DNA of 64,000 nucleotides from Amoebophrya sp. A120 (GCA_905178155.1 CAJINV010000004.1:7818771-7882770); one strand, 5' to 3'; shown: positions 902-64,000, numbered from the stretch's first letter. Program-made: numbers and translations. Notes: generated by a model not told the origin, from the sequence alone.

Positions 902-3382
902 ATGCCCCTCGCAGCCTCCTTATCATCACTCGACGGAGCAGCCTCCACGCTCTCCTCCTGGCCCCCGGATTTCTCTATTGCCACGGGAAAATTACCAAAG
1001 CCCGACGAGCTCGACCGTGCGTTCTTTCTGAAGTACTTCGGAAAAACTTTTCCGAAGCTCACCGGCGCCAGCAAAACCAAGGACCTTCCCCGCCCGGGCT
1101 TCCTCGCCGAGGTCGGCTGCTTCGGGAAGAAGGGCAACGACGGCGTCAACACGCGACGGAGTCCGGAACTCTACCTCATTCCCCGCCTCGACCCGGGCAA
1201 GTGTCCCCCGAGTAAGCGGTATGGAAGCGTCATGGAAATCAGGGATGAAGTGACTTCGAAGGGCGCGATCACGACGAGTCCAGCCGGCGGTAAGATGCTG
1301 GACGACGAGGAGTCCACGACGACTACGGAGGAGGAGGTGCGGGAGAAAACCGAAGCTGCGAAACACTTCCGGAAAACGGTGTTGAACCTCGCCGCCGGAC
1401 ACGAAAACGACACTAGGGTTTTCGGGTACTGTAACATGGAATCCTGGCAGAAAACGGACCGCGAGAAATTCATGTCCGCCCACCAGATGTGCTTCGGCCA
1501 GGATCGGCCGCGAACGGGGGAGGAGGGTGGAGTCGCGGAGGGTGAAGCTGCAGTAGTTGCGGGGGGTGGTGAGAAGAAAAAGCTGCCTACCGAGGAAGAA
1601 ACTGCAGAACAACTACCCGGAAGTAGAACCTCCGACCAACAGGAGGTGCTCGACGACCTAAAAGCGTCGTTGAAAGAGCGGGACTGCTTCGCCGCAGTCG
1701 CCGAGTGCGACGCCAAGCGGAACTTCAAGTCCTTTTACTTGCGAGAAGAGCCTGGACCAGCAGCAGCAGCAGCATCCGTGGCTGGGAAGGCCGGGCGGGG
1801 AACCGGAGGGCAAAAATCCTCTTCCGGAGATGTTGGTGCAGCTGCGACGACAACGGAGGGGAGGCAGGATGAACCGGCCAGTGGTGCTCAAGAGCCCGCA
1901 TCCTCAACGGACAAGAACGCAAGCGCAGAGGACAAAACTTCTTCCTCCAGCACTGCTAGTGCAACTATCGAGGACCACCACAAGCAGGACGAGAAAGATG
2001 ACAAGGAAGTCGAAAATAACAACAAACCTTTTTTCCGCACCGCCCGGCGTTACGTGGAGCCGTATCCGAGCTTTTTACCGGCGAAAGACGGATTTCAGTA
2101 CAAGCCGAAGTTCGACCTTCGCTCCTTTTTTCCTCCGTCTCAGGGTTACGAGTTTGTAGTGGACCGCACGACGGGGAAGAAGTATAAGCTCGGCAATATT
2201 GACGCAGCGAGCGGGCAAGCCGCGATCCACGAGCAGGTGAAAGCGAGCAAGCAGAGTGCGGATGAGAGTGGGGAGAAGTATCAAATGCAAAAATGTCTGG
2301 GTCTGGAAGAACCCAACTTGTGATGCTGCATTTGGATTCCAAAAAAAATTGTATTGCATGAGTACTAGCAAAGGGAATGTAATTTTTGCTACGCGGATAG
2401 GGCATCTGTCATGCGAAACAGGCATCAAGAACCCCTCGAAAACCCTGTGATGCTACGGCATGCATCACAGAGGACATCATGGCCCATGCAAAACGTGCAT
2501 GACAAGTCTCAGAATCTCCCAGACCCAGACATTTTTGCATTTGATAAGAAGGGCCAGAACACCACCGTGGATGAGCAACTCCCGGAAACCCCGGGTTCCA
2601 AAGCGGCTGGAGCCGCGGTGGCGAAAACGACCCCGGCGGACACGTCGATTGCGCTCCCGGGGGTGGATAAGGAACACACCGAAAACGCGGAGAAGGATTT
2701 GTCGGAGGAAATGTTTGCGTTTTCGAAACCGACGAAAATCGAGAAAGCAGCGGAGGCGGAGGAGGAAAAGCAGATGGAATTAGCGGAGAAAGAGCAGGAA
2801 ACGGTGAAGAAGCCGACCTACGTCTTCACGATCGACCAAACGGTGAATTCCAACCCGGAACAGACCACGCACGTGTTTTTCGGCGTCCGGAGAGATAAGC
2901 CCGAAACCGAGTTGCCGGAAGCTTGGAGGGCCTGTGCGGACTGCGCGGATGACGGAGTGAGTGGGGACGCAAATGAAATCACCAGCTGCGCGCCCTGTCA
3001 GTCCGTGTCTGACAAAGTAAAACAGGTGTGGCCGCCAGCGGAAAGTAATTCCGGGGCGGTAACGGCGACCACCACTCCTGCGGCCCAGGAGCCTTTGGAT
3101 AAAGGCGGACACCCGGTCACGAAGAAAAAGAAGATTCACTGGAAGGAAATCGCGTTCGAGCAAACATTCAACACTACAAAGGAGGACCAGGAGGAGGGCA
3201 CGGGCGGCGCCGGGACCCTGAAGGTGCTGTGCCACGGGAGCAATCTGGGCAGCAGTTGCGACGACGACATGTTGAACGAAGCGACGGGCGGGTTGGGCGA
3301 TGCAGCCGCGGAAGCGACGGAAACCGGGACAGCGGAAGAGGAAGCTTTTGCGGAGCAGGGTCCGCCGACAGGGGCGGAATAA
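902..3382 (+). CDS. Hypothetical low-complexity protein, 2 exons (start uncertain)
   Basis: ORFs 902..2323 and 2411..3382 share a frame. Removing 2279..2551 (element + one AGAAG) joins ...SGEK|GQNTT. No recognisable domain. Confidence 0.65.
2279..2546. mobile_element. Introner family A
   Basis: TIR tatcaaatgcaaaaatgtctgggtctggaag ... ccagacccagacatttttgcatttgata; direct repeat AGAAG/AGAAG. Confidence 0.92.
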
Positions 3383-3915
3383 AGACAGTGCAACCAAGAA
3401 CAAGTGCGGCCACATGATATGTTTCGATGAGGTTCCAACTGTATGATGATGAAGCACGACACGACCTACAGTTACAAGTTTGTGCTGACGTTTCCGATTG
3501 ATGAAATTGGTTTCGATTTTCAAATCTGCAAATGCCGAGGCAAAATCACATGGAAAATAGGAGGGCCTTTCTTTGCGGCCGTGCTGTTCAAGAACTTGAA
3601 TTCAGGTCTGTTTTGTGCGGGTCGTACAGGTACTTACTCAGGAGCGCAGCTTGCTGTCGGTTCTGGCTCGCAATCTTCGCTTGGACACACGAACATCGAG
3701 AGCGCCGTTATAAGCACTCACCTAACGCAAACGCAATCGTAGCTGTCGGCCCATTTTCAATATATTTCGTTTGATTTGAATAAAAGAATGTGGTTGTTTA
3801 ACGGTGTCACATCAGGCAGGCACAGGCAGCAAGACTGCATGACGTAGGAAAGAAAATGAGTACTAGATTGACATAGCCCCACTTCAACTACAAAGGTTCC
3901 ACACTGAAAAGACTT

Positions 3916-10130: not shown

Positions 10131-12054
10131 ATGGTTGTCCCCGCCTCCAACCTTCCCACGCACGCGGGCCCCGTTCCGCCCCCCAAAAACACCATCGACG
10201 AAGATTTTCGCCATGCGGAGAGCGGCTGGCGGTTCCGCGCGGTCCAGTCCCCCATGCTGGAATCGCAGGTGGCGGAGACTATCGCGAACGACGCGGGAAT
10301 CTGGCCCCACCCCTGCATGATATTCGACACGTTTTTGCAGGTATAGGAAATTCTAATTCATCCTGATGTTGGTGGTGTTTATCTGCAGAACATGAAAATC
10401 CAATTTTGAAAATTTCTGCACGCGTAGTTCTTCGCTGGGGAAATCGGCTCATGATGACTTTTGTTTTCAATCATACTTATGACTCTACATATCAATCACC
10501 ACAACTTCCAGGTTTACGATGCTGCCGACAACCTAGTTCTGGACATCAACACGCGCGACGCCTTACGCGGAACCCGTATGGATTTGAGACAGAAACAGGA
10601 GAGCACTGGCAGCAAAACAGAAACAACAAAGACAGCTGGTGTTCCTGAGTTAAAAGTTGTCGCGGAGTCCAGCCATTTGCTTTCCACCAAGGTCGTTTGC
10701 CAGCACGCCGAGAAGTGGGGGTCCAGCCGGGATTTGACCATGGCGAAACAGATCGAGACAGACACCGACTGGACTTTCTCTTCCACCTATTGCCCTACAG
10801 TGATGAATTTAAATTCTACGAAAGACTCCGACAGCCCAACCACAACAAACACCTACGAAACCGACGAGTCCCTCCCCCAATTTTCCGCGAACCAGTCTCT
10901 CCTGCCCATGGCGTTACTGACCCAGCAGCAAAATAACCCGATCGAGTTTTTCACCGCGATTACCTTTTACGAAGACGAATTGGACGACGAGGGGAGTGCG
11001 GCTTTCTCTTTGAAGATCCGGGTGCACAAGCACTTTTTTTTTCTATTACTGCAAAACGAGATCCGGGTGGACAACGTGCTGGCTCGGAAGGTGGAGACGA
11101 TATGGATTGCAAAAATGTCTGGGTCTGGAAAAGTGTAAACTTGTCATGCAGATTTTCCATGACCTCTGGAATGCAGATGCATGGGGTCTGGAATGCGGGA
11201 CTTAGCATGACAGAATCTGCGAGGTCTCTGCCATGCCTATCCTGCATGAGAAACTCCCTTCCAACTTGGTCAAAAGTGGGCAGCTTTTGGCTCTCATGCA
11301 ACACAGATTTTTGCATGCTTCAGATTTACCATGACAAGTTGCCGCCTTCCAGACCCAGACATTTTTGCATTTGATAGACGAGGTATTTCGGCAATTTGTG
11401 CTTCATGAACAAGGAAACGGGGAATAAATGGAACCGGGGGATCCGGCTCATGATGCCGGAAGGAGTTGTGCGGAAGTCTTCGACAGGTGGACAACTCGGT
11501 GAAAAGAACGAGTCGGAAGTTCTTGTTGAGCAAAGTCCAAATTATACCGTCGACACCAGCTGCTCGTCTCCGGCGAAGGAGGTTGAACAACAGCACTCTG
11601 TGATGCAACAAGACCGCATTCTGGAGCCAGGTTCTATCTTACGCGAGTGGAGCTACAGCGAGGTGTCGTTTCCGCAGCTCCGACAGCGGGGGGACCTGAA
11701 TTCCGCGGAGGAGATGGTTTTTTGCCTGCAGAAAGTGAACGAAAAGGATTTGATATGCATTGCAAATATGTCTGGGTCTGGAAGAAAGCAAACTTGTGAC
11801 CACGCGCATTTCACAACACATAAAAATCCGTCATGCAGAGGCAGCAAAAGCTGCCGACTTTCTCTCACCAAAATGGGGCATTTGTCATGCGGATTCGGCA
11901 TTGCGGAAGCTTCTCGAAACCTGTAATGCTAGGGCTTCCATGCCAGACCTTCTGTGTCATGCACAAGCAGCATGACTCTTCCAGGCCCAGACATATTTGC
12001 ATTTGATATTTGATTACAAGGGACGTGACGATATTCGACTGCAAGGCGGCATGA
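10131..12054 (+). CDS. TIPRL: TIP41/TIPRL-like PP2A regulator, 4 exons
   Basis: DWTFSSTY and FYEDELDDEG...KIRVHKHFFFLLL..IRVDNVLARKVET|RYF. One GT-AG intron 10341..10511 and two introners; stop at 12052-12054. Confidence 0.85.
11101..11376. mobile_element. Introner family A
   Basis: Family A TIRs; direct repeat GACGA/GACGA. Confidence 0.92.
11754..12008. mobile_element. Introner family A
   Basis: Family A TIRs; direct repeat TTTGA/TTTGA. Confidence 0.92.
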
Positions 12055-13088: not shown

Positions 13089-16000
13089 ATGTCGGACGAC
13101 GACGGCAAAAAAGTTCCCAAGTCGGACGGCAGCCCTAGCCCTGAGACCACAGGACTGCTCCGCGGAGATGGTGCTCTTGGGAAGGACAAGGGCAAGGAGG
13201 CGGACTGGCTCAAAGAGTTGAAGGGAAAAATCCTCGGAAGTAAAGCAGCAAAAGGCAAAGGGAAACAAGATGACGGCAAAGGTGGACCACCTCCGCCAGA
13301 CTCCGATTCCGACCGGAGTGGGAAGAAAGGCGGGGGGAAGAAGGGAAAAGACGACTCCGACAGCGACGGCGGAAAATCAAAGGGGTTTCAGAAAGGAGGC
13401 GGTAAAAAGGGGAATAAAGGTGCTGAGAGTAGTGATGATGACAAGGGTCGTGCTGGAAAGGGTCCGCTCAAAGGGTCCGACAAAGGGATGAAAAGTAGTT
13501 ATAAGGGTAGCGACAAAGATAATAAAGGTTGGAACTACGACAAAGATGGCGACAAAGGTAGTACTGGCAAAGGGACGAACAAGAAGTCCAGTGCTGTTGA
13601 CCAAAAGGGCGATAAGGATCATGGAAAAAATAAGGCTGGGATGAAAGATAAAGGCGGAGATTGGAACAAAGACAAAGGTGGCAACTACAACAAATCTTCG
13701 AAAGACCACAAAGAGGGAAAGAAAGAATCCGGAAATAAAGACATCAAAGGCAAGAAATCCTCCTCGGTTGATAAAGGAACAACATCAAAAACCACGACGG
13801 GCGAAAGCGCTGCGGACAGTAAGCTAAAAAATCTGCTGAGCAGCAAGCCGAAAAAAACGGCGCCGCCAAGCACACAGATCCAAACCAAGACGTCGTTCTC
13901 CACGTTTGTCGAGGAGCAAGATGTAGTGGCAACTACTGATAAGCAACCTGCGTCGAAAATAGAAGACCAAGAATTCCTTCCTGTGTTTGATAAGAAGAAC
14001 GACAAGTGGATTCATGTGAAGAACGAAAAGTACAGAGGAAATAAGTCCCCTTCCCCAGTCCGAAACGACCGCAGCGGGTATAATCGGCAGGACGACAGGA
14101 CGAAAGGCGATGAACAACAACATCAAAAAGGGACGAATAAGAATAGAAACCGCGACCGTCCCGGCCGGCGCAGCAACAGCCGCGGTAGAAGAGACAACTA
14201 CACTAAAAACCGCGGAAAAAACAACACTCGAGGGGACAGAAGCATCCGCCGTGGAGGCACGAACTACGGTAGCAATTACGACCAGGACGACAAGGACGAA
14301 GATATAGTCACAACTTCCAAGCGGGATAGAAGTGATAGTCGCAGGAGGAGCAGGAGAAACAACTACAAGGGACGAGATGACGACCACGCCTGGAATAAAG
14401 GCAGCAGTAGTAGCGGCAAAAATTGGGACGACAAGAGTTATAACGTCGACCAAGATTCAGAGTGGAACAACAGACAAGACCAAAATGACCAAGCTGCAGA
14501 AGAAAAAACCACTGCTTTGGCAGCTGTCGTGGACCACGACGAGAAGAAACAGGATGAAAACTGGGACGATATCCTGTGCAAAAGTATCGTACTCGTATAT
14601 GTAAATGCATTATAAATTTCCCTAGCATGAGAAATAAAAACTTGTCATGCGGATTTACCCTAAGAAAAAAATTTGTAATGCATGAATGCAATTACTACGA
14701 GTACGATAGTTTTGCACAGGATAGACGAGGAGGAGCAGCAACCTTTGGTCCTCGAGGTAAAAGCCGAACCCAGTATCAAATGCAAATATGTCTGGGTCTG
14801 GAAGAGTGCCAGGTTTGTCATGCAGGTTTTCCATGACCCATGAGGTCTGGCATGTAGGACATAGCATGACAGATTCTGTGAGAGTTCCATCATGCCTATT
14901 CTGCATGAGAAACTGCCTCTCGATTAGGTCAAAAGTGGACAGTGTTTGGCAATCATGCAACACAGATTTTTACATGTTATTCAGACTTAGCATGACAAGT
15001 TGCATCCATCCAGACCCCGACGTATTTGCATTTGATACCCAGAGACATCGTGGTCGAGTTGGAGAAGGCGTGTCGGCTGGTGCTGAAGCCCTCGGCCGAC
15101 GGAGACGAGTTATGCAAGAAAAAAACTGTCTTAGTGTAACTTTCTTTGCCCGACAGCATTACAGATTTGCTCTACATGATAGAGAAAACCTGTCATGCGT
15201 GGCTTGTAAGGGAAAACACACATGGAAAGAGGGCTTCATGGCTGTCTGGCATGACAGGCGCAACTCTCTTGCATGTTCTGCATTACAGAGTTACACTTAC
15301 ACCGTTTTTTTCCTGGATACGAGTTCCGCCGCATTTACTCCGCGCAAATCGAGGTGATCGCGGACATTTGGGAGGAGGACGTGGTGCCGAACGCGAAAAA
15401 AGTGGACAAGTGGCTGAAAGAAGTGGTCAAGCCCATGCGCGCCGAAATCGACCGTTTGACGAAGCGCATGGCCTTAAACCCTTCCAGCACGCCGCCGCAG
15501 GAAAACGAGGGAATGTTCCAAAATTTGCGGCCCTTGATCCATTCCGTCGACATGCTGATCCGGAGGGTATTGGAACTATTTTAAAGCGGATTTGGATGCT
15601 GTTTTGTGAAGATTGGTTTCATGATTCGTAGTAATAAGTAGTTTCTCTGGGTCGTATGCAAGATTGAGATTCAGATTTCGATTGATTGAGAAATGACGTT
15701 TTCCATGTGAGATTATAGTTTATGTATGCAATTCCCACCACTATTAAACACAGCGAGTAAAGGAAGACCGAGACAAGGCCAAAGTGCTGGCCCAGCAAAT
15801 CTCTTCGCACGTGGCAACTTACATCCTGTACGCGATCCACTTTAACCCCGATCCGGATCAGCATCAGTACGCAATCACGAAAGCCAAAGACTGGCTGGGA
15901 AACGTCTGGTACGGAGGAGATTGCAGTAGATGACTTCTGTTTTTTGCACGTCTTTTTGTTTTGGTCGACGCCTGCACCAAGGACGGGGTCCGTTCGATGT

Positions 16001-25408: not shown

Positions 25409-25666
25409 TATCAAATGTAAAAATGTCCGGGTCTGGAAATTTGTGATGCTGGGTGGCGTATCACGAGGAGGCCGCAAGAGCTGGCCCAGCGTGACAAGTT
25501 TTTGAGCTTCTAGGTGTTGCCTATTCTGCATGACAAACTGCGTTTCTGCATGACAGAAAAGGGGGGCTCTTGGGTAACAGGCATGGCAGATTTGAGAGTC
25601 ATGCTAGACAAGCATGAGCATGGCAAACATACATTCTTCCAGACCCAGACATGTTTGCAGTTGATA
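25409..25666. mobile_element. Family A element outside any identifiable CDS
   Basis: Family A TIRs; direct repeat AGTCG/ACTCG; no convincing host ORF. Confidence 0.88.
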
Positions 25667-26744
25667 ACTCGTCTACTTTTTGCTCAAAGCGCTTTTCGTC
25701 GGTGCGGTACAGACGTTTGCAGAAGGAGTGCAGAATTCCTTGTACAACCAGGAAGTACTACAGTTCAATACAACGGTGAGGAACGGTGTTTTTTGCTGTT
25801 GCATCGGCATAAACTGCTGCTGCCAATGCTCGATTTTGGTGCTAGCGGGGCGGTTGGTGTATTTCTTGGTGTGCTGGATCGCTTTGCCGGCAGGGACAGC
25901 GGTGTTGGTTCATTTGAAAGAACAAGAGCTGCTGCTGTACAACTAGAGGCAAAAAATATAATCGCAACTACGAGGAAAAAAACTCGTCACAACGAATCTA
26001 TTGACGATTATTCGTACCTGCTTCCCCGTTCGAAAAAAGCCGACTAGTCGTGTGTTCAATACTGTCACTGTAGAATGGATCCACCGCGTTGTGCGTGTCA
26101 ATACTGGTGGCCGCGGTTCGGACTTGAGCTCTCCACTACTCGATGATCAGTTTTTTGTTGTCAGTTTTTGCAATCAGCACATGCTGAAGTTCCTTAACTG
26201 GACTCCTCATTTTGAGTAGAAGTCTCGCGCAACGCGCGAACACTGTAAACTGAAAAACTTTATTGCGTAACTTCTTGTCGATCCTTCGTTGTCGCAAGTG
26301 ATTTTCATAAACTTTCCGACTCCGTAATTAATATCTCTCCGTTTTCAAAGTGAAAGTGTGTTGTTACAAGAACCTCGCTTTGTGTGGAAATTTTTTCGAA
26401 AAAGTTTAAGCGATCATCTGTTCATATTGGCCACTTTGCAAGCTTTACACTTTTTCTGTTCATATGTAGTGAGGTCACCGAACGGTTCTAACCAGGGAGT
26501 TTTTTTGACAGCTCCCGCGAAAAACGGCCGGCAGTTTTCAAGCGGCCGGAAGTGTTTTTGGGCATAAAAAATTTTCAATTATCAAGCGGCCGGGGCTTTG
26601 CCGTCAAACAAGCCCGAGCGGATTCTATCGATTCCCGCTTGATAAAACGACGCAGGGGAGCCGGCAAAAGGGGCGCCCTTCTGAGGCGCCCACCGCCTTG
26701 GTTTCTGCCGATTTGGGGCTCCCAAAAAGGGGCGCCGCAAAAAT

Positions 26745-27180
26745 GCCAAGACGAAAAAAAGCGCGAATCCGCATGGTATGGGCCCCATTTTGGTCCACTT
26801 TTGGAGGTCGCAAAGCCGGCCACCAAAATCGGGCATTTGTAATGCGGGGAGCAATCCAAAAGTTGCCAATTTCCAACAAAAAAAACAAAAAGCGGAAAGC
26901 CCGCCAAAAGCTAAAAGCTAACCCGCATGCTATGGGCCCGATTTTGGGGGCCCATGGGGCCGTGCTTGGTGGAGGCCCTGGGGTTGCTATAGCATGCGGG
27001 AAAGCGTTTCGATTCAGGAGGCGGCAGGGGCGCGGCTTTTCAACAAAAAAAGCCAAAGGACGCAAATCCCGCCAAAAGCAGCAAGCCAACCCGCATGCTA
27101 TGGGCCCGATTTGGGGGGCCTACAGGGCCGACCCTGGCTGAGGCCCTTGTGGGGCCATAGCGTGCGGGAAAGCGTTTCTC
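26745..27180. repeat. Degenerate ~155-170 bp direct repeats in GC-rich upstream region
   Basis: ccgcatg(c/g)tatgggccc..atttt/ggg at 26769, 26923 and 27091; gcgggaaagcgtttc twice. Confidence 0.7.
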
Positions 27181-50890: not shown

Positions 50891-53800
50891 ATGGCGTCCA
50901 TTTGTTCGCACGGTTGCACCAAGATCATGAAACGTGCCCCCTTGAATATGAATGTCATCTCCGGTCTACTTCTGCTGCTCTGCACCCAGAGCCTCTTCCT
51001 CGTCTTCCCCCTTGCCGCCGCGTGGCACCTGGAGATCCTGGTTACCTCCCCCTGGTTATCGTACAGAAAAGATGAATATCAACTGTAAAAATGTCTGGGT
51101 CTGGAAACTTGTGATGCTGGGTGGCGTATCATGAGGAGGCCACAAGTGCTCGCTCAGCATGACAAGTTTTTGAGCTTCTAGGTGTTGCCTATTCTGCATG
51201 ACAAACTGCGTTTCTACATGACAGAAAAGTGGCGGTCTTGGGTAACGTGCATGACAGATTTGAGAGTCATGCCAGACAAGCATGACAAACATGCACTCTT
51301 CCAGACCCAGACATTTTTACACTTGATAATGAAATGCAGACAGGACAGATTTGTAAAATGCAAAAAATTATTCGAAAAATCTGTCATGGGCGAGCCCGTA
51401 GCGTGCTGCTTAGGATTATCTGCGATAGAGATCAACATTTGTGCAGCGCGTGCCGGTTTCTTGTGTATTTATTTTTGCATTTTACATTACAAATATGACG
51501 ACTGCCTGCTTTTTTCTGTTTGATACTGGCGCAATGAAGAGCGACGGAACATCCTTCGCAACGCGTTGACGAATTGCAAAACGGTTGGGGTCGCTACCCA
51601 GCACAAGGTCACCTACCACTTCTTTATGGGCAACGTGAACGACACAAGACCCAGTTTCGAGGAAGACACCAACCGCGTGCTCTTCGCCGCCGGGCGGTTT
51701 CTGGAAAATGGAGAAACCCTCTCGTCCATCGGACCCGCGGTGGAGGAAAACCAAAACGACCTGGGGGTCAACACAGGAGAGCACCAGCAATTTTCCGACG
51801 CGGTGGTAACTACCGACGATGAGGCGTTTCTCTACGGGTTGCGGGTGAGAACAAACCCAGCAGACACATCAAGTCCTGAAATAGTACAAAGAACTCATCT
51901 CCTGCAGGGGGACAACAACTACAGGGATCTTGTCGTCCTGAACGGCCCAGATTTAGATCCCCCAGTGCAGCGCGACGTCACGTACGTTTTGGAAAGACCG
52001 ACCAGCCGCGCGTTCCGCGTCGCGTACGGGACCAGGTGGGTCTACCTCTACCTGCCCAGCACGGACTTTATCTTTTATCTGGACGACGACTCGTTTCTGA
52101 ACGTGCCGAGGTTGTTTCAACTCCTTGACGGGGTTGCGGTCACCGAGCAGCGTAACATGATGGAAAGGCAGGAAAACGGGGATGAAAACCTGTCCTTGCG
52201 GTACCGAAATGAACGGGATAGAATGCAGTCGATCGTGGTTGGATACATGATGGCAACGGACGTGGACATGGGGCGATACGACGTTTGTGAAATGTAGGTT
52301 AATATATAGATATGTGTTATTCTTGTAGAATTTTTACTTTTTTCTTTGTGTGAGATTTTTTCTTGCTACTTCTCCACTAAGAGTACTTCTACGTGAGTTT
52401 CCTGTACAAATTTTTGTTGTGGGAGGTAAAGAAACACTCTCCGCTCGAATAGAACCTTAACCTCTGGGAAGATTGTATGTTAACAACCGTCAAAACTTCG
52501 ACTGTCCCACTCATCCGACATCACCGCCCCAGGTGCGATCCCTGCGAGCGCTGCCTGAACGACCGTGCGCTGAAGAACTTCTGTGCACAGTTGCCGCACC
52601 TCTCCCTCTATGTATTGCAAAAACGTCTGGGTCTGGAAGGTTGCAACTTGTAATGCTGATTCTGGATCGTGCAAAAATCTGTGTTGCATGAATGCCAAAA
52701 GCTGACCACTTTTGACAAAGTTGAGAGGAAGTTTTATCATGCAGGAAGTTTATCATGCAGCATAGGCATGATACGGATCTCACAGAATCTGTCATGCTGG
52801 GTCCTGCATTCCAGACGACAGGGATCATGGAAAATCTGCATGACAAGCCTGGGAATCTTCCAGACCCAGGCATTTTTGCATTTGATACCCTCGGCGGCTG
52901 CCTGGCGTACATGAATACGTGCAAAATTTACGGGACGGAGACACCCTTGCTGGATTGCATCCGGTATGTATTGCAAATATGTCTGGGTCTGGAAGGTTGG
53001 AACTTGTAATGCTAGCTCTCCATAGTACCTAGGAAGTCTGTATTGCCTAAATCAACAAAAGTCGCAGCCTCTTTTGGAGGAAACACGCAGTTTCATCTCA
53101 TGCGGATTGCCTATGAGAAAGCGTTTTGAAAAGTTGTCATGCCAAATTGAATATTCGGAACTGTTTCCTTCATCCACATTTTCGCATCACAAGTTTCCAG
53201 TAGACCCAGACATATTTGCATTTGATATCCGGGACGCGCAAATGGAGGCAGCCCGTCTCGCGGAGTACTTCGGTACGAAAAAATCTCCGCTTTGGCTTAT
53301 CCCGTGTAAAAACATCCCCACCCCATACCTGTCATGCAATTCTGCATGCCAAGAAAGTTTCTCATGCGGAGCTCTATGAGAAGCATTTTTTATTCGTGTT
53401 ATGGAATTTGTGATGCTAGGATCAGTTTGCTGTGCTAGATCTGTGATGCTTCTGAACTAGCTAAACAGGGTTACACTACAAGGGCAAAGAACTTGTCATG
53501 CGAAACAACGAAAGCTAGTTGATTTGTCTAGCAGATTTCCCATCTTGACTCTGGTGTGGGGACGTTTTTAATCAGGATATGGCTGCTCGGCATGGGCTGG
53601 CTTTTCGGGAAAAGGGTGATCAACTGGATCGCGCGGAACGCCGCGGATTTGAAAAAGCGCGGCGCCGCCGACTTATCCTGAGAAAAAAGTGTTGCAGTTA
53701 AGTACACACCCTGATGAGAGTGAGAGACAAGCAAGACAGACAACCTCTGGCATGCAGGAAAAAATGCTTGCCCGCCTCATATGATTATCCGTGTTTTCGC

Positions 53801-56708
53801 TTATAGTTTTAGTTATAGTCTGCGCATCTCAGGTATTTTCCTTTTCCATGTCGGGTAGCAACTTTGTGATGCAGAAACTCCAACACCAACAAATGGAAGT
53901 GTGTCACTGTAAAACTTTTTTCCTGTGATGCGACTTGATTCTCGGTTACTGGCTGGTTGGGATGGAAGATCTGAATTGGGTGGACACCGGGCCGTACGGA
54001 AATTTTCGCTTTCACGACTACCCCATGCGGGGGAACACGTTCACCCGGGCCTGCCACGACGAAACCATCCTGGTGCACCGCATGACGCCGAAGCGGTGGG
54101 AGCGGGATTTCGATTATGGCGCGCCTAAAGTAGCTTTTTCAAAAGTACTAGAATTTTTTTTTTGATGTTTGTGCGGCACGTCGGCAACTAGCTATACCAA
54201 ACTAGATAGAGTTAGCTAATCAAACTAGGTGGAATTTTGCATGCGTAACCAGTTGTCTAACTCAGAGGTAGTAGCTTGCTCGTCTTCCACGAAGGGCTGG
54301 CCTACGGATCTGTCCGGAACGCTATCGGTACGTCGTGGCGAGCTCGGACATGTTTCTGGTTGCGCGCAAAGTCATCTACTCCGGTTGAAACAACAGGTGG
54401 GCCATCTCATGACGTTCGGCGTCTACTACGAATTTGCGAGCAAGTTCGCAATACGCAAGTGCGGAGGCCACCTGCTGCGGACCGCAGCGAAAAGAGTAAC
54501 GGGCACGCAGGCCTGCCCCAACACGGGGCCCCCAGAGGGGCCGCGAAGTGGCCGGCAAAGTGGCCTACGAAACACCCCCCCAAAAAATCTCCAATACCGA
54601 TGTAACTACCCCTCCCGAAGAGGCCGATCAGTTGGCATCTGCGGAGGGGGGCAAACTCGGACGAAGTTTCCCAATAGATTCGCAGAGGTTTTTTTCCCAT
54701 GTTCGACAGCTAATGCGCCTTCGCAGTGTAGGTAGCGCCATCGTGCGCCAGTGTCAAGATCTGGCTGGATGTCCGGAACCAGGTATCGGAGGTTGGTAAA
54801 TTCCGCACGGTTTTCGTCGTTTCGGGACCGTACACCTAGCCAGAGCTCCGAGTAGAGGACCCTCAGCAAGGCTTGGCGACGGGACTGCTCTGGACAGATC
54901 CGTAGACCAGAGCCTCGAAGAGTACCAGCCTATTTACCTCGCGGCGCCGACGTGCTTTTGCACTTATTCGCAATGGACTTCTCATGCATATTCAGAATTG
55001 CCTAGTTTTATTAACTAGGTTCTGGCACTGAAGCGCTTGCAAAAAAAAAATTCTAGTACTTTTAAAAAAGCTACTTTAGGCGCGCCATATCGATAGAGAA
55101 ACCTGCAGTTTAGACTGCGCGTTTATCGAAATGAAAAATCCTTCCACCCATTAAATTTGTGATGCTGATTTGTGATCACAAGTCATGTTGTCATGCTAGA
55201 AGGGCAAATGGGACGCGGGCTGTAGTGCTGGCTGGCGTGGCAAAGCCTTGCATCTACTTCAGTGCCTCTGACAGAAGGCAATTGGAAGGGGGGAATCTCA
55301 TGACAAATTACCTGCAAGGTGCGGTCTTGTTTGCCAAACAAGACCGCAACTGCGTCTCTTGCCCTTGTAGCAATACAAGCCTTACGCAAGACATCCAGCA
55401 TCACAAATTTCCTGTACGACACTGGGAGGGGGGATTTTTCCTCGCAATAGCGTTGGAGACGGACCCGGAGTTGTCGGACGAAGACAGGCAGAAGATCCAG
55501 GAGGAAGAGGAGAAGGAGGAGAGACTATCAAAGTGAAAAATCCCCCCTCCCCACATCGAAAAGGTATGTTTCTGAAAGTTTGTGTTGCTGATTTGAGCTC
55601 ACAAATCACGTCTGTCTTGCAAGAAGACAGGCGCAGAGGCTTCCGCACCATTATGGAAGCGATTTGGCATGCTGTTGCGCCTAGGGGGCACCCGTTTGCA
55701 ATGCTAAGCAACTAGACCTATAAGTACGCCCCTACCTAGGCCGAGGATCTGGCTGCGATGCCTTACTGCAAGACAAATCCGATTTGTGTACCCAAATCCT
55801 GCATCACAGATTTCCATTTCGATATGGGGAGGGGGGATTTTTCCTTTTGATAGAGACGGAAAGAGTTGGAAATGGCGGACTCCTTGCGCGAACTGGAACT
55901 AAACCCCACCGGGGTGCTATGAAAGTGCAGGACAACTCCCCCTCCGCCTTCATTTGCGCCGTTGCATGAACAGCAACACAAGCGCTGGCAAAGGTCCAGC
56001 TTTTGCATGACAAATTCCTAGGAGACTGTAGTGCAGTTCTGGATCATTCCGGAATCTGTCATGCAAACAGTGCTAACAGGCAAAGGGTGGATTTGGGATT
56101 TTGCATGACAAACGAGGGGGAGGGGGAGCTGTGCACATTCATAGGTGAAGCGGGAGACGCGAATACGCGACGACGATGGGAAGGCTCCTACGGGTGGCGA
56201 GGGAGGACCAGGAGGTGGCAGCCACAGCAGTAATCTCCCTCTGAATCTTCACATGGAGGCGGAGGGGGAAATAGATATGGAGGCGGAAGGGGAACAACAA
56301 ATGGGGGCGGAGGATGAACACATTGGACAGAGTGCGGAAGTATCCTGTGCAAAAGTATCGTACTCCTATTGCAATCATGCATTAAAAATCCTTGTCTTCG
56401 GGTCAATCCGCATTACAAATTTTATTTCTCATGCTGAGGAAATCGAAATTTGTAATGCATTTATACGAGTGCGATACTTCTGCAGTGCATAGGAAGTAGA
56501 TGAGATCGACTTCATGAGCGAGAAACTAGACGATAGTTTGGATGACGCCTTTGTCACGCAAGAGGACGAAAGTGATCACGACGAAAATTTTTACCCAGAA
56601 CCCTCGTCGTACGAGGAAAACGACGAGAATGTTAAGACTATAGAGAATAATGAACTATATTCTGCGGTGGAGCCTTCTGTAACTCTAACTACAGATGTGC
56701 TGTTGTAG
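50891..56708 (+). CDS. GT31/beta-1,3-galactosyltransferase-like glycosyltransferase with acidic C-terminal tail, 12 exons
   Basis: N-terminal hydrophobic segment; spliced ILVTSPW|RNEERRNILR; YRDLVVL; FIFYLDDDSFLNV (DxD); WL|LGMGWLF; AAD|LILGYW. Eleven introners (one nested) and a GT-AG intron 52294..52532. Confidence 0.75.
51057..51525. mobile_element. Outer introner (family I) containing a nested family A element
   Basis: tatcgtacagaaaa...atttgtaaaatgcaaaaa pairs with tttttgcattttac...ttttttctgtttgata; direct repeat CTGGT/CTGGC. Confidence 0.82.
51077..51328. mobile_element. Introner family A, nested
   Basis: Family A TIRs; direct repeat ATGAA. Confidence 0.92.
52609..52887. mobile_element. 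Introner family A
   Basis: Family A TIRs; direct repeat CCCTC. Confidence 0.92.
52965..53227. mobile_element. Introner family A
   Basis: Family A TIRs; direct repeat TCCGG. Confidence 0.92.
53298..53579. mobile_element. Introner family E
   Basis: Family E TIRs; direct repeat TGGCT. Confidence 0.92.
53674..53930. mobile_element. Introner family F
   Basis: Family F TIRs, ends ATG; direct repeat CGACT. Confidence 0.88.
54115..55089. mobile_element. 975-bp TIR element acting as an intron
   Basis: ~48 bp near-perfect TIR tatggcgcgcctaaagtagctttttcaaaagtactagaatttttttt; perfect direct repeat TCGAT; removal gives ERDFD|RETCSLDCA. Confidence 0.92.
55124..55449. mobile_element. Introner family C-like (diverged)
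   Basis: tatcgaaatgaaaaatccttccaccca ... tgggagggggatttttcctcgcaata; direct repeat GCGTT. Confidence 0.87.
55526..55852. mobile_element. Introner family C
   Basis: Family C TIRs; direct repeat GAGAC. Confidence 0.92.
55918..56143. mobile_element. Introner family G
   Basis: tatgaaagtgcaggacaactccccctcc ... ggagggggagctgtgcacattcata; direct repeat GGTGC/GGTGA. Confidence 0.88.
56341..56491. mobile_element. Introner family B
   Basis: Family B TIRs; direct repeat GGAAG. Confidence 0.92.
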
Positions 56709-57250: not shown

Positions 57251-60200
57251 ATGACCCCAACGAGGACCACTTCCGACGACCCTTCCACCCAGCTCTCGCG
57301 CGAGTACCTGGTCCACCAGGGGGCGGCGGTATTATGCCTGAATTGCCCAACAAGCGACAACAGCGGATTCCAGTTCGGAATCGACAACCACCTCTGGCAT
57401 ATCAACTGCACAAATGGCTGGGTCTGGAAGATTGCAACTTGTCATGCTGTTTTTGGACTCTAAAACAATTTGTATTGCATGACCAGCAAGAGGGGCGCAG
57501 TTTGTGATAGACGGACAGGGCATTTCTCATGCGGAAGCATCAGGAAGGGTTCTAAAAATCTGTAATGCTAGGGCATACATCACAGACTATCATGGGTCAT
57601 GAGAAACATGCATGACAAATCTTGCATTCTTCCAGACCCAGACACTTTTGCAGTTGATATGGCAGACCGGCCCGAAATTTATGGGGGTCAAGTTCATCCC
57701 GCCGGGCGTGCATTTCATCTACTACAGCAACAGCAACCTGGGCGACATGGTGGAACGGTGCGGGTTTTTTGTGCACTTGAAGCCGCAGGAAGTGTTGGTC
57801 CGCAAATGGGATCAAAAAACGGAAACGTTGGAGAAGTTAACGGACCTCGACGAGGAGGCGAGGTATGTCGATGGCGTGAGGCATTGGGATATGAAATGCA
57901 AAAGTGTCTGGCTCTGGAAACTTGTGATGCAAGTCAGTCAATAACAAACGCACTTTAATGCGCCGCTTAGCATGACAAGATGCTTCGTGCTTCTGTGCTG
58001 CGTATTCCGCATGAGAAACTGCGTTTTTGCATGACAGGCGAGAGATGCTATTCGTGGCCCCGCAATACAGATTTAAGGGCCATGCCAGATCAGCATGACA
58101 ACTCTCGCAATCTTCCAGACCCAGACATTTTTGCAATCCATATGGGACTTTGATCTCAACCTCGGCGAGTACCCGCTACTCAACGCCGAATCCACGGTCC
58201 ACTACGACCAGTATCGAAAGGAAAAATCCCCCCTCCCCATATCAAAACGAAATTGCTGATGCTGGATTTGTGTAGAGAAATCAGCTTTGTATTGCAGAGA
58301 GGCATTGCGGCCAGATCCCCAGGCTAGGTAGGGGCGTATGGGTCTAGTTGTTCAGCATGGCAGACGGCTCGTCTTTAGGTCCACCAGCGTGACAAATCGC
58401 TTCCATAATGAGGCGGAAGCTTCTGCCCTTGTCTTCTTGCAAGACAAATGTGATTTGTGGCCTCAAATCAGCAACGCAAATTCTCGGAAGCATGCCGGTT
58501 CGATATGGGGAGGGGGGATTTTTCCTTTCGATAACCAGTGGCGGGAGATCACGCGGCACATCAGCAACGGGGTCGTGAAAAAAATCGAGCCGGTGCATGC
58601 GCTGATCGGGACGAAAAGGAAAGATTTGGTGGTGGAGGAAGAAGTGTTGAACCTATCGGGCGACAGCGATAAAAAAACCAAGATTCAGGAAAGCATCGGG
58701 AGCTGGAAGGCGCCGGGGTACGTGCGGGCCGCCGCGGGCGCGGGGGTAGATAGTCTTGAAGGGCGGGAAATAGCGGACAGAAAGATTGACGAAAAAGTTG
58801 TAGCCCCCGCAGATGAGGTATTGTTAAAGAAGGACAACAAGGAAAAGGACAATTATACCGCTGACCATCTTGGGAAAAGCCAACCTGCACCCGAAAGAAG
58901 GGAGCCATCAGGAGGGGCCACTGCGGTTGTTCCACCTCGTCCCGCCCAACCCCCAACATCCGCGGCGCAGCAGCAGCGAGACCTAAAGGAGGATCAGAAA
59001 GAGTACCAGACCTCGGTTCAGAACAACTTCGGCAGGCTCTTTTTCTCCACAATTCCCGCCACGACTTTGTCCGGGGAGGAGCTGTCGCCGGCCGAGATCA
59101 CGAAACGGCACATGGACAAGTCCCACGTACTAGCGAAGATCATTGAGCATGATATCCTGTGCAAAAGTATCGTACTCGTATTGCAATTGTGCATTACAAA
59201 TTTTTTTCTGAAGCTAAATTCGCATTACAAATTTTATTTCTCATGCTGAGGAAATTTGTATTGCATTTATACGAGTACGATACTTTTGCAGTTCATACAC
59301 TAATACGCGGACTTAAATCCGCACTACGTCAAGCACAAAATGGCGAAAAAGGAGCAGAGTAAAAGCACAACTAAAGCAAGTAGTTCTACTATTACTCGAC
59401 CGCCAGCTGGTGCAACTACAACATCATCTACTACACCATCACGACGAGAAGAAGAAGAAGAAACGTTCTCAGAGATGAAGAAAATAAATTCTACTACGGC
59501 AGCATCAGCTTCAGCAAAAGACAGTACGACCGAAAGTGCAAAAAATCATCCCTCTAGTACTGCCAAGAAAATCAACCAGCAAGAATCGATGCGGAAGATG
59601 GGGGAACAGAATATGAAAACCTCCTCTGCTCTGTCGAAGCAGGAACAGCATTTCCAGCTTCTCGCCTACCTGGCGCTTCTGGGCGAGCTGGAACTGGCCT
59701 TTGTCGCGTTTCTGCTCGGACAAAATTACGACGCTTTCGAGCAGTGGAAGAAGTTGCTGAACCTCTTCTGTTCCTGCACGGAATTGATCGCGAAGCAACC
59801 GGTGTTGTACCTGGAGTTTCTGCGAACGCTCTACGCGCAGTTACAGCAGTACTGCAAAGAAAATTCCCCCCTCCCCATATGGAAAACGCATCCTTGTGAA
59901 AATTTGTGATGCAGATTTGTGACCACAAATCAGGTCTGTCTTGCAAGAAGGCACACTCAGGCTGTCCGCCACGTTATGCAGGGGATTTGTAATGCTGTAA
60001 GGCCTACAGGGTAGCCGTCTACCATGCTAAGCGCCTGCACCAATAGGCCCCCTCCTGGGCTCAGGATCTGCGTGCGTTCCTCTACTGCAGCACAGATTTG
60101 ATTTGTGTATCCAAATCCAGCATCAGAAATTTCGTTTTGATATGGGGAGGGGGGATTTTTCCTTTTGATAAGCAGGCTCCGGAGGACTTCTTCATCGGAG

Positions 60201-60720
60201 GCGAAAGTTTGGATTTGAGCGACAATTTTTTGTATGCAATGCAAAAGCATCGTACTCGTATAAATGCATCACAAATTTCTTTCGGTTTCCTCTGCGTGAG
60301 AAATGAAATTTGTAATGCGGATTTACCTGGACAAAGAAATTTGTAATGCATGATTGCAATTACTACGAGTACGATACTTTTGTACAGCATATTTTGGTGC
60401 ACAATGCGATTCAACTGGTGGAAAGGGTGGACATTGTGGTGGAGGAGCAGAAAGGAAGCAGGGTAGAAGAACTTGGTGCGTCTGCTGGGGTCACTGTCCC
60501 CTCGCACCATCAAAACACGAACCAGGAGGAGCAGATCTTCGGGGCGTTGGCGACGCGGGCGCAGCACGTCCGAGAACTGCTGTCTGAGAAGTTTGGGAAG
60601 AAGTTTGAGACCCTGGCCTGGACCGCGAACGCGCCCACGGTCGCGGACCATCTGGAAGATTGCGAGAACGACGACGACATGCCGCAGATTGTCGATCTGG
60701 ACCAACCGTACGCGTTTTGA
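57251..60720 (+). CDS. AAR2: AAR2 (U5 snRNP assembly factor), 7 exons
   Basis: FGIDNHLW|QTGPKFMGVKFIPPGVHFIYYS, FDLNLGEYP, WREITRHIS, EITKRHMDKS, LLGELELAFVAFLLGQNYDAFEQWKKLLNLFC, QLQQ|APEDFF...DNFL. All six introns are introners. Confidence 0.9.
57400..57659. mobile_element. Introner family A
   Basis: Family A TIRs; direct repeat TGGCA. Confidence 0.92.
57890..58142. mobile_element. Introner family A
   Basis: Family A TIRs; direct repeat TGGGA. Confidence 0.92.
58212..58533. mobile_element. Introner family C
   Basis: Family C TIRs; direct repeat ACCAG. Confidence 0.92.
59153..59297. mobile_element. Introner family B
   Basis: Family B TIRs; degenerate direct repeat CATGA/CACTA. Confidence 0.88.
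59850..60170. mobile_element. Introner family C (TAC start)
   Basis: Family C TIRs; direct repeat AGCAG. Confidence 0.9.
60233..60391. mobile_element. Introner family B
   Basis: Family B TIRs; direct repeat TTTTG. Confidence 0.92.
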
Positions 60721-62924: not shown

Positions 62925-64000
62925 ATGCCCGCATCTTCGCCCATCATGCCCCGCAGCACGGACCATGTTGCACCCAGACCCAGCGCTCCTTTCATTGTGG
63001 TCAAGCAGAGCCAGGTTCCGGTTGTGTCAATAACTTCGCCGCTCCGAATCGCAGAAGTCGCTCTGGCCGCGCACCAGTGCCGGGTCGTCTTGGGCTACGA
63101 TGCGTCGCAGCTCGCGCAGCTGCGTTTTGAGCGTACTCTATTAGATCGAAATTATACGGAAATAATATAATAAAGTGTGTACGTGTAGTTTTGTGTAGTT
63201 GTCAAATGCCAGTATAGATCATTTGTTGTTCGTTCTTGAACCATTGTAAAAACCAGATGTAAAAAATAAATACACACCACCACAACCCAAGAACTACAAT
63301 CGGAACTCTCAGCCGTCTCGCCCGGCGCAAACCCGCCCAGCGCTCCCGTGAAGCTCAACGCCGAGACCTCGGTGATCGACGGGGCCGAGCTCACCCAGGA
63401 TAATCTGCTGTTTCTAAAGCCCATATGTATTGCAAATATGTCTGGGTCTGGAAGAGTGGAACTTGTAGTGCTGTCTGCGGATTCTAAAAATATCTGTGTT
63501 GCATGAGCAGCAAGAGGAGTCAGCTCTTGGTACGCGGAGATGGCATTTCTCATTCGTAGTTAGCATGAAGAAGCTTTGTTCAAAAAATCTGTGATGCTAG
63601 AACAAGCATCACAGACCTCACGGGTCATGCAAAATGTGCATGACAAGGCCCGACTCTTCCAGACCCAGATATATTTGCATTTGATAGCCCACGCGGGACG
63701 GCAACTGGCTGGCCTTTCACTTTGCGGACCGGAGGGAGGTATGAACTGCAAAAGTATCGTACTCATATTGCAATCATACATTACAAGTTTTCTTCTCAAG
63801 TCAAATCCGCATTACAAATTTTCTTTCTCATGCTGAGGAAATTTGTAATGCATTTATAGTATACGAGTACGATACTTTTGCAGTTCGTAGGAGGCGGAAA
63901 CCTGGCTGGCGGCCTTCAAGGAGTGTCGGGCACAGTATAACAGTGCACAACTCCCCCTCCCCCTCATTCGTATTGCATGAGCAGCAATAGCAATACAAAC
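62925..64000 (+). CDS. Partial gene, possibly PH-domain-containing; 5' end uncertain, runs off the window
   Basis: Putative GT-AG intron 63133..63312, then LFLKP|TRDGNWLAFHFADRRE|AETWLAAFKECR, resembling the C-terminal strand and helix of a PH fold. Confidence 0.45.
63424..63686. mobile_element. Introner family A
   Basis: Family A TIRs; direct repeat GCCCA; reverse orientation of the 21256 subtype. Confidence 0.92.
63740..63889. mobile_element. Introner family B (GTA end)
   Basis: Family B TIRs; direct repeat GGAGG. Confidence 0.9.
63936..64000. mobile_element. Introner family G, truncated by the window edge
   Basis: tataacagtgcacaactccccctccccctcatt matches the family G terminus. Confidence 0.75.

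What the first reader, a model, noticed from the sequence alone, without database searches (positions are those of the whole stretch)
2279..64000. Multi-family system of TAT...ATA inverted-repeat transposon introns lacking GT-AG
Seen: about 69 elements in at least 9 TIR families share TAY...ATA ends and a 5-bp direct repeat. Removing the element plus one repeat restores the frame in every case traced, including the eIF4A3 Walker A motif, the kinase Gly-loop and VALK, and AAR2 and TIP41 motifs. Most offer no in-frame GT-AG solution. Established: MITE-derived introners exist, and non-canonical introns with inverted and direct repeats are reported for Amoebophrya. Inference: these essential genes are functional, so a precise non-GT-AG removal mechanism operates, guided by the TIR hairpin or terminal motifs.
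Basis: partly seen in the sequence, partly recalled or inferred. Interest (0 to 1): 0.9.

Follow-up and report, generated by a model that had tools for sequence, protein, structure and literature searches.

The report
Transposon introns cut at fixed offsets
Genes of the marine parasite Amoebophrya are riddled with small hairpin-shaped transposon copies that are missing from spliced transcript assemblies although they lack the usual GT-AG signals; this is already published, but the joints here show a fixed cut one base before and four bases after the hairpin, likely made by a relaxed spliceosome.

Summary
Observation confirmed; the system is published. The window is Amoebophrya sp. A120 (eIF4A3 100% identical to a named protein). 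It holds 68 complete TAY...RTA/ATG elements with 5-bp flanking repeats (49 perfect), in 7 multi-copy families plus 7 singletons, 28% of the DNA. These are the RNA-seq-supported non-canonical 'introner elements' of Farhat et al. 2021 (PMC7789003).

Added here: in transcript-type contigs, 16 of 16 displayed joints skip element + 5 nt, none readable as GT-AG. Eight joints with imperfect repeats share one compatible cut: intron = N-TAT...ATA-NNNN. The paper's Fig. 3 legend calls that border variable or unknown. In 4 of 4 testable cases an in-frame GT...AG option 3 nt shorter is ignored. The cut puts U,A,U at +2..+4, as in canonical donors, so a relaxed spliceosome is my best guess (about 0.55); a hairpin-measuring endonuclease/ligase is the rival (0.25). 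Branch-point and G-U wobble hints did not replicate in 237 further elements. The scan noted hairpin-bounded non-canonical introns before in other genomes.

The parts
2279..2546 (+). family A element, repeat AGAAG/AGAAG
   Evidence: not in laid stretch
11101..11376 (+). family A element in TIP41-like gene
11754..12008 (+). family A element in TIP41-like gene
14570..14723 (+). family B element
14774..15037 (+). family A element
15111..15319 (+). family D element
16125..16274 (+). family B element, repeat 4/5
   Evidence: joint not among rows shown
16330..16638 (+). family A element
   Evidence: joint not shown
18078..18339 (+). family A element, repeat 4/5
   Evidence: joint not shown
18389..18641 (+). 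family A element
   Evidence: contig piece starts at 18642, fits element+5
19249..19510 (+). family A element, repeat GGGCG/GGACG
   Evidence: piece ends 19246: left letter 3 kept; in-frame GT..AG option not used
19574..19825 (+). family A element
   Evidence: joint not shown
21256..21515 (+). family A element, repeat 4/5
   Evidence: joint not shown
21565..21817 (+). family A element, repeat GCGAC/GTGAC
   Evidence: piece starts 21820: left letter 2 kept
22281..22430 (+). family B element ending ATG
   Evidence: joint 22275>22431, skip 155
22478..22739 (+). family A element
   Evidence: contig length sum 887 exact
23165..23426 (+). family A element
   Evidence: adjacent pieces 23159>23427, skip 267
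23783..24043 (+). family A element; exact removal also readable as GT-AG
   Evidence: length sum exact
25409..25666 (+). family A element, repeat AGTCG/ACTCG
   Evidence: joint 25405>25669: left letter 2 kept
26463..27262 (+). 800-nt singleton element upstream of a start codon, decayed repeat GTTCA/TTTGG and interrupted inverted repeat
   Evidence: found through RNA: joint 26461>27267 with zero ambiguity = cut between letters 4 and 5; fold
27556..27822 (+). family A element starting TAC; removal also readable as GC-AG
   Evidence: joint 27550>27823
27872..28193 (+). family C element
   Evidence: joint 27866>28194
28472..28741 (+). family A element, repeat AGGAC/ACGGC
   Evidence: joint 28470>28746: left letter 4 kept
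29485..29809 (+). family C element in kinase Gly-loop
   Evidence: joint 29479>29810
29858..30066 (+). family D element before kinase VALK, repeat GAAAG/AAAAG
   Evidence: joint 29853>30068: left letter 1 kept
30333..30548 (+). family D element, repeat CCACG/GCACG
   Evidence: joint 30328>30550; in-frame GT..AG option not used
31350..31601 (+). family A element, repeat CGCAA/CGGAA
   Evidence: joint 31347>31605: left letter 3 kept
31657..31909 (+). family A element
   Evidence: joint 31651>31910
32802..32948 (+). family B element in MFS gene
   Evidence: joint 32795>32948
33206..33416 (+). family F element, repeat ACCGA/ACCGC
   Evidence: joint 33200>33417 in two runs: RIGHT letter 5 kept
33501..33753 (+). 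family A element
34368..34689 (+). family C element
35172..35384 (+). family D element
35548..35799 (+). singleton element, repeat GTTTC
36037..36191 (+). singleton element (D-like ends)
36458..36703 (+). family A element
36757..36985 (+). family G element; removal also readable as GT-AG
37347..37623 (+). family E element, repeat 3/5
41732..41995 (+). family A element ending ATG
42035..42319 (+). family E element
42375..42527 (+). family B element
42637..42895 (+). family A element
44452..44660 (+). family D element
   Evidence: joint not shown
44721..44999 (+). family E element, repeat 4/5
   Evidence: joint not shown
45091..45336 (+). family A element
   Evidence: piece starts 45335, fits element+5 and not the GT..AG option
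45742..45970 (+). family F element
   Evidence: adjacent pieces 45736>45971, skip 234
46459..46696 (+). singleton element, repeat CGCAG
   Evidence: piece ends 46453, fits
46763..47040 (+). family A element
   Evidence: joint not shown
48001..50350 (+). eIF4A3 gene: 4 GT-AG introns and one element in the Walker A motif
   Evidence: model = P0006, 392 aa; contig of 1632 nt
48435..48702 (+). family A element in eIF4A3 Walker A
   Evidence: length sum 363 exact; hairpin z=-9; DNA-type contigs hold both junctions
49790..50023 (+). GT-AG intron of eIF4A3 made of a family-A interior that has lost both inverted repeats
   Evidence: 79% over 201 nt to element 23783; joint 49788>50023
51057..51525 (+). 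singleton outer element holding a nested family A copy
   Evidence: joint not shown
51077..51328 (+). family A element nested in 51057-51525
52609..52887 (+). family A element
   Evidence: joint not shown
52965..53227 (+). family A element
   Evidence: joint not shown
53298..53579 (+). family E element
   Evidence: joint not shown
53674..53930 (+). family F element ending ATG
   Evidence: joint not shown
54115..55089 (+). 975-nt singleton element with 50-nt inverted repeat; no recognisable transposase
55124..55449 (+). singleton element (C-like ends)
55526..55852 (+). family C element
   Evidence: joint not shown
55918..56143 (+). family G element; removal also readable as GT-AG
56341..56491 (+). 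family B element
   Evidence: joint not shown
57400..57659 (+). family A element in AAR2 gene
   Evidence: length sum 289 exact
57890..58142 (+). family A element in AAR2 gene
   Evidence: length sum 289 exact
58212..58533 (+). family C element in AAR2 gene
   Evidence: length sum 289 exact
59153..59297 (+). family B element in AAR2 gene, repeat CATGA/CACTA
   Evidence: adjacent pieces 59151>59302: left letter 4 kept
59850..60170 (+). family C element starting TAC, AAR2 gene
   Evidence: length sum 57 exact
60233..60391 (+). family B element, AAR2 gene
   Evidence: length sum 57 exact
63424..63686 (+). family A element
   Evidence: joint not shown
63740..63889 (+). family B element ending GTA; GT-AG at the fixed cut
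63936..64000 (+). family G element cut by the window end

Best explanation
These are inverted-repeat mini-transposon copies with a 5-bp flanking duplication that spliced transcript contigs lack by exactly element + 5 bases, cut one base before the left repeat and four bases after the right one, likely by a spliceosome that has relaxed its G(+1) and AG requirements. Shown: presence in DNA-type contigs, absence from transcript-type contigs, the length removed, the cut position at informative sites, the neglect of in-frame GT-AG options. Inferred: insertion by a DDE transposase supplied in trans (5-bp duplication, TA..TA ends); the terminal hairpin brings the ends together in place of U1/U2AF end definition; the 5' site is read as N-U-A-U; the 3' site is set by a 4-nt distance from the terminal ATA rather than by sequence. 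Because both ends are mirror images, either insertion orientation yields a removable intron, and because 4 + 1 letters of the duplication stay in the mRNA, any insertion site is restored without a scar - which would explain how tens of thousands of copies are tolerated in coding exons.
For: Removal: 16 of 16 displayed joints skip element+5; 8 more elements fit exact contig length sums; 5 more fit on one side - 29 of the 50 elements in the two laid stretches, the other 21 hidden by table truncation. Same contigs splice GT-AG introns; DNA-type run X5 has contigs running from flanks into elements at flank depth 40-47. Cut: ranges of kept left-repeat letters over 16 joints intersect at exactly 4; under independent random cuts the 10 informative sites would all agree with p about 0.007. 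3' site is not AG-driven: positions -1..-4 and +1 are compositionally free; 4 of 4 testable in-frame GT..ATAG options are ignored. For the spliceosome: the cut places T at +2 and A at +3 in 68 of 68 and T at +4 in 65 of 68; all 7 RNA-supported canonical donors here start GTA, 3 of 7 GTAT; in Farhat's Table S4 all 9 top A120 classes start N-T and all 9 top A25 classes start TT, with A25 repeats starting TTA, so both strains would have T,A at +2,+3; snRNP27 is undetected in both strains and its loss goes with +4 U preference in yeasts (PMC10581693 abstract); 83 of 89 spliceosomal proteins and U2, U4, U5, U6 are reported for A120; +2 T deviates in 1 of 265 elements (a probably mis-registered call) against 7 at its mirror position (p=0.07); a family-A interior survives as a plain GT-AG intron in eIF4A3.
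Against: No lariat, branch point or snRNA dependence was seen; nothing here tests the enzyme. The TA at +2/+3 match has about a 1-in-6 chance for one strain. A yTnAy branch-point asymmetry seen in the window (3 vs 17, p=0.003, 1 of 64 tests) vanished in 237 independent elements (44 vs 39), as did a G-U over A-C bias (62:41 then 210:219). Position +5 is mostly C, not the G that U6 prefers. A free +1 and free 3' end are hard for the known second-step chemistry (own knowledge). The upper limit of the cut rests on two sites (33206 in two runs; 26463 in one), all joints come from assembled contigs of two runs of one study whose RNA label is a guess, and contigs show only the dominant form. U1 is reported missing.
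Confidence: 0.55

Rival explanations
1. Same fixed -1/+4 cut, but made by a non-spliceosomal endonuclease plus ligase that measures from the terminal hairpin (tRNA-splicing/RtcB-like, or the unknown machinery of Euglena nonconventional introns).
For: No sequence constraint at either cut; very stable terminal hairpin (z=-9); nearby GT-AG ignored; Euglena introns follow a similar spacer code N3CDG..CHGN5-6|R by unknown machinery (PMC12501133 abstract); U1 not found.
Against: No G-U wobble excess that would show selection on an RNA helix; deviations at the third base pair are mostly C-A mismatches; element 26463 is cut 4 nt after the terminal ATA although its long stem ends about 20 nt earlier, though a short terminal helix could re-form; T,A at +2,+3 in both strains fits a spliceosomal donor.
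Confidence: 0.25
2. The elements are excised from DNA (somatic or stage-specific excision by a transposase) before transcription, so mRNA is made from a clean template.
Against: DNA-type contigs cross element-flank junctions at the same depth (40-47) as unique DNA; a strand-asymmetric 4+1 joint tied to transcription direction fits RNA processing; Farhat found no transposase in A120; all elements tested are on + strand genes, so the strand link is not independently shown.
Confidence: 0.05
3. The joints are reverse-transcriptase template-switch artefacts across hairpins with direct repeats; real mRNAs keep the elements or use other sites.
For: Hairpin plus direct repeat is the known signature of such artefacts (PMC2923612, search listing only); evidence is cDNA-derived contigs.
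Against: Joint 26461>27267 has no shared letters and 28472, 59153 have one; one fixed offset across families; keeping the element adds an in-frame stop in 62 of 67 cases, including eIF4A3 and AAR2.
Confidence: 0.04
4. Ordinary GT-AG splicing at nearby sites, possibly after RNA editing of the ends.
For: 31 of 67 have some in-frame GT/AG pair within 15 nt; 4 of 68 exact removals read as GT-AG.
Against: 0 of 16 direct joints read as GT-AG, 1 as GC-AG; 4 of 4 in-frame options unused; Farhat found possible editing at only 2-4% of boundaries.
Confidence: 0.03

Closest known systems
Introner elements / non-canonical introns of Amoebophrya sp. A120 (Farhat et al. 2021, PMC7789003)
   Same: Same organism (protein identity 100%); repeats start TAT, 7 looser bases, then a run of A; 3-5 nt direct repeats; about 240 nt; many families; RNA-seq supported; 29,850 copies reported.
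   Different: Nothing in kind. The paper describes repeat length as 3-5 nt and the border as variable or unknown (Fig. 3 legend); here the repeat is always 5 and the cut is fixed at -1/+4 at all informative sites. I saw text, legends and supplement tables, not the figures.
Euglena nonconventional introns (PMC12501133; review PMC11282704)
   Same: Non-GT-AG, inverted repeats pair the ends, duplication-like repeats at the joints, cut set by spacers from the paired motif, longer spacer on the 3' side.
   Different: Code there is N3-CDG...CHG-N5-6|R; here N1-TAT...ATA-N4 with no purine rule seen at the exon start. Circular products reported there (title in reference list); untested here.
Fritillaria borealis non-canonical introns (PMC13326754; PMC11282704)
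   Same: Transposon-derived, inverted repeats and duplications, most introns non-GT-AG, removed by a U2-type spliceosome with U6 m6A change.
   Different: There the ends are specific (AG-AC, AG-AT) and U1 is conserved; here both terminal dinucleotides vary freely with the target site and U1 is reported missing.
Micromonas / Aureococcus introners (as reviewed in PMC11282704, PMC7789003)
   Same: MITE-derived introns, one copy of the duplication removed.
   Different: They use canonical splice sites carried by the element or co-opted from the duplication; here only 4 of 68 could.
IS3EU/GingerRoot DNA transposons (PMC10045372, PMC12730594)
   Same: TA..TA termini (TAYGG..CCRTA in rust fungi); fits the integrase-like homology in A120 introners noted in PMC12130899.
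   Different: Duplication usually 6 bp there, 5 bp here; no transposase found in this window, so kinship is only a lead.

Membership tests
Amoebophrya A120 introner elements (Farhat 2021) | Organism is strain A120 | tested here: met
   eIF4A3 exon 100% identical to P0006 labelled Amoebophrya sp. A120; full spliced model identical
Amoebophrya A120 introner elements (Farhat 2021) | Inverted repeat starting TAT, 7 looser bases, then 3 or more A | tested here: met
   TAT 65/68; A at repeat positions 11-13 in 60-62 of 68; definition
Amoebophrya A120 introner elements (Farhat 2021) | 3-5 nt direct repeat at the exon/intron boundaries | tested here: met
   5-bp repeat, perfect in 49 of 68
Amoebophrya A120 introner elements (Farhat 2021) | Repeated families, absent from transcripts, ends not GT-AG | tested here: met
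   7 multi-copy families; 16 of 16 joints, 0 GT-AG
MITE (non-autonomous TIR DNA transposon) | Short, terminal inverted repeats, fixed-length target duplication, multi-copy, both orientations, no coding capacity | tested here: met
   no Pfam or Atlas hit in ORFs of the two long elements
MITE (non-autonomous TIR DNA transposon) | A cognate autonomous transposase exists | not testable with these tools
   no genome held; paper reports none in A120
IS3EU/GingerRoot transposons | TA..TA termini | tested here: met
IS3EU/GingerRoot transposons | Target duplication usually 6 bp | tested here: not met
   0 of 68 perfect 6-bp repeats
IS3EU/GingerRoot transposons | DDE transposase of the IS3EU clade | not testable with these tools
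   none in window
Canonical U2-type spliceosomal intron | GT (GC/GA) ... AG termini | tested here: not met
   0 of 16 joints GT-AG, 1 GC-AG; 4 of 68 possible
Canonical U2-type spliceosomal intron | Branch-point motif near the 3' end | tested here: inconclusive
   window hint not replicated
Canonical U2-type spliceosomal intron | Released as a lariat, needs U2/U5/U6 | not testable with these tools
   no raw reads of this organism on exons
Euglena-type nonconventional intron | N3-CDG ... CHG-N5-6 | R signature | tested here: not met
   signature here is N1-TAT ... ATA-N4, exon +1 free; definition
Euglena-type nonconventional intron | Ends paired by a stable stem, cut at set spacers from it | tested here: met

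The most novel reading that the evidence does not exclude
Amoebophrya A120 removes some 30,000 coding-sequence transposons with a second, non-spliceosomal mRNA splicing pathway that reads no splice-site dinucleotide at all and simply cuts 1 nt before and 4 nt after a TAT/ATA-closed hairpin, making any insertion scar-free in either orientation.
Probability: 0.25. Interest if true: 0.9.

Novelty: already known. Interest (0 to 1): 0.42.

Why it matters
The system itself was described in 2021, with the splicing mechanism left open. A single cut rule (N|TAT... read as 1 nt before the left repeat, 4 nt after the right one) turns an apparently signal-free intron class into a code that can be tested with minigenes and lariat/circle sequencing, lets gene finders place tens of thousands of A120 junctions exactly, and explains why a transposon can colonise essential exons for free. 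If the spliceosome does it, it tolerates a free +1 and a free 3' end, beyond Fritillaria; if not, it is a second nuclear mRNA splicing route.

Tried and rejected
Whole genome not held, so no genome-wide census or transposase/METTL16/snRNA search. No listed holder is on record as RNA; raw-read runs X9, X10, X11 put no reads on exons, so strand, retention level and minor joints were not measured. One search was swamped by repeat joints from the DNA-type run (2268 joints, 21815 pieces not shown); one search hid 14 joints and 634 pieces. Branch-point (yTnAy) asymmetry and G-U wobble bias: seen in the window, not replicated in 237 stranded elements of 257 from loci L001-L150 (20 dropped for weak strand calls; the strand caller got 59 of 67 window elements right, 4 wrong, 4 uncalled). 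Terminal-position asymmetry is only a trend (position 1: 1 vs 7, p=0.07; position 3: 8 vs 4, p=0.39). No covariation between +1 and -1 letters. The motif has no match in viral contigs; no Rfam family in the window. ORFs inside elements 54115 and 26463 and in GC-rich 61.5-62.6 kb have no Pfam or Atlas hit. Search for repeat-less relics in the loci: 14 of 278 interiors lacked one recognisable end, none both. The idea that the eIF4A3 relic keeps its original TAT donor was dropped: its GT aligns to the inner end of the repeat. Roy et al. 2023 (Curr Biol) is not held and may bear on the cut position.


Full report
Observation. Scans of the window give 68 complete elements and one cut by the window end. 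They start TAT (65) or TAC (3), end ATA (64), ATG (3) or GTA (1), and sit between 5-bp repeats that are perfect in 49, 4/5 in 15, 3/5 in 3 and 2/5 in 1. No perfect repeat of 3, 4 or 6-9 bp occurs. The strict scan returns 54 pairs against 0-1 in 20 shuffles. Interiors cluster into 7 multi-copy families and 7 singletons; copies lie in both orientations, one is nested, and together they cover 28% of the window. Removing element + 5 nt keeps a frame open at least 150 nt each side in 55 of 67 outer elements, against 23-26 for out-of-frame lengths and 50-52 for +2 or +8; keeping the element adds an in-frame stop in 62 of 67. Host genes include eIF4A3, AAR2, TIP41, a kinase and an MFS transporter.

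Identity. An eIF4A3 exon is 100% identical to P0006, labelled Amoebophrya sp. A120 (best 120 of 7730 hits listed), and the spliced six-exon model equals it letter for letter. Farhat et al. 2021 (PMC7789003; I read the abstract, sections 10, 11, 12, 16, 36, passages, supplement searches and supplement part 4; the figures are not held) report for this strain that more than 60% of 66,565 RNA-supported introns are non-canonical, that 29,850 are repeated elements in 1,954 families with inverted repeats starting TAT, seven looser bases and a run of A, and 3-5 nt direct repeats, that U1 and snRNP27 were not found, and that the mechanism is open. The finding is therefore a rediscovery.

Removal from transcripts. 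Two lays were possible. The raw-read runs X9, X10 and X11 put nothing on exons; contig runs X1 and X4 (labelled RNA by guess) skip GT-AG introns and so behave as spliced cDNA; X5 covers exons, introns and intergenic DNA at depth 40-47 and behaves as DNA, with contigs running from flanks into the elements. Of 50 elements in the laid stretches, 16 show a direct joint, all skipping element + 5; 8 more fit exact length sums (363, 289, 57, 887); 5 fit on one side; 21 are hidden by truncated tables. None of the 16 joints can be read as GT-AG; one can be read as GC-AG.

The cut is fixed. Where the two repeat copies differ, the transcript tells which letter is kept. The left copy is kept at letter 1 (29858, 30333), 2 (25409; 21565 one-sided), 3 (31350; 19249 one-sided) and 4 (28472, 59153); the right copy is kept at letter 5 (33206, both runs). 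An 800-nt element at 26463-27262, found only through its joint, has a decayed repeat and no ambiguity: the cut lies between letters 4 and 5. The allowed ranges of all 16 joints intersect at that one position; for independent random cuts the chance of agreement at 10 informative sites is about 0.007. The intron is thus N-TAT...ATA-NNNN. Six elements offer an in-frame GT...ATAG intron 3 nt shorter; in the 4 that can be judged (19249, 30333, 45091, 48435) it is not used. The paper's Fig. 3 legend calls the splice sites variable relative to the hairpin and the border unknown; its Table S4 lists nine top A120 classes, all starting N-T, which is compatible with this rule but not proof. Searches for Amoebophrya with splice site/hairpin, with introner, and for dinoflagellate introner boundaries and passages of four later papers showed no statement of the rule; Roy et al. 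2023 was not available, and the paper's Figs S19-S25 could not be seen. Limits: the upper bound rests on two sites, data are assembled contigs of two runs from one study, and all genes tested are on the + strand.

Mechanism. Shown: DNA presence, transcript absence, length, cut. Inferred: a transposase in trans made 5-bp duplications; termini resemble IS3EU/GingerRoot (TA..TA) but those usually duplicate 6 bp (passages), and no transposase is in the window. For removal I favour a relaxed spliceosome (0.55). The cut puts U, A, U at +2, +3, +4, all 7 RNA-supported canonical donors start GTA and 3 GTAT; A25, with unrelated repeats starting TTA and top classes all TT-, would also have U, A at +2, +3; loss of SNRNP27K goes with +4 U preference (PMC10581693, abstract); Fritillaria shows that a U2 spliceosome can take transposon ends (passages); and one eIF4A3 GT-AG intron is a family-A interior without its repeats. 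Against: my two sequence tests for how the 3' end is read failed to replicate. In 237 stranded elements from a second sequence set carrying the same families at up to 96% identity, the branch-point-like asymmetry was 44 vs 39 and G-U vs A-C 210 vs 219. The +2 position is the most constrained (1 vs 7 at its mirror, p=0.07), a hint only. A hairpin-measuring endonuclease/ligase, as suspected for Euglena (PMC12501133, abstract), stays open (0.25). DNA excision, RT artefact and nearby GT-AG use are unlikely for the reasons listed under rivals.

Verdict. Real, correctly read, already known as a system; the fixed -1/+4 cut is a useful and apparently unreported refinement that makes the open mechanism testable. 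Interest 0.42.

Noticed in passing
window 49790-50023: A GT-AG intron of eIF4A3 is 79% identical over 201 nt to the interior of family A but has lost both inverted repeats: possibly an introner turned canonical, or an element decayed inside an older intron.
   Followed up: partly
window 59147-59178; 48435/48702; 49842: Raw-read run X9 has no reads on exons but hundreds of reads matching 30-45 nt of element ends; the flanks at 59147-59178 are the same in a contig of X1. An abundant RNA carrying an element-end motif, source unexplained.
   Followed up: no
window 26463-27262: 800-nt GC-rich element upstream of a start codon with internal 150-170 nt repeats and an interrupted inverted repeat, still removed at the fixed cut.
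   Followed up: partly
window 54115-55089: 975-nt element with a 50-nt inverted repeat; a 93% identical copy appears in a transcript-type contig and several in the DNA-type run; no protein family found.
   Followed up: partly
window 51057-51525: A family-A element with its own 5-bp repeat is nested 20 nt inside the left end of another element, splitting that element's inverted repeat (twintron-like).
   Followed up: no
window 29479-33417: One 5008-nt contig of X1 runs across the kinase and MFS genes, with the intergenic stretch included; overlapping or read-through transcripts are possible, a contig does not show it.
   Followed up: no
window 3979-9546: A 1855-aa XPD/RTEL1-type helicase frame (DEAD_2, Helicase_C_2) has no element in 5.5 kb, while neighbouring genes have one every few hundred bases.
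   Followed up: no
window 40321-40604: Intergenic tandem array of 29-36 nt units and a 23-nt pair.
   Followed up: no
loci L001-L150: A second sequence set in the metagenome collection carries the same families A-G at up to 96% identity, with no overlap to the window's genes.
   Followed up: partly
whole window: All recognised genes and all RNA-supported GT-AG introns lie on the + strand, as in the one-directional gene clusters reported for this genus.
   Followed up: no
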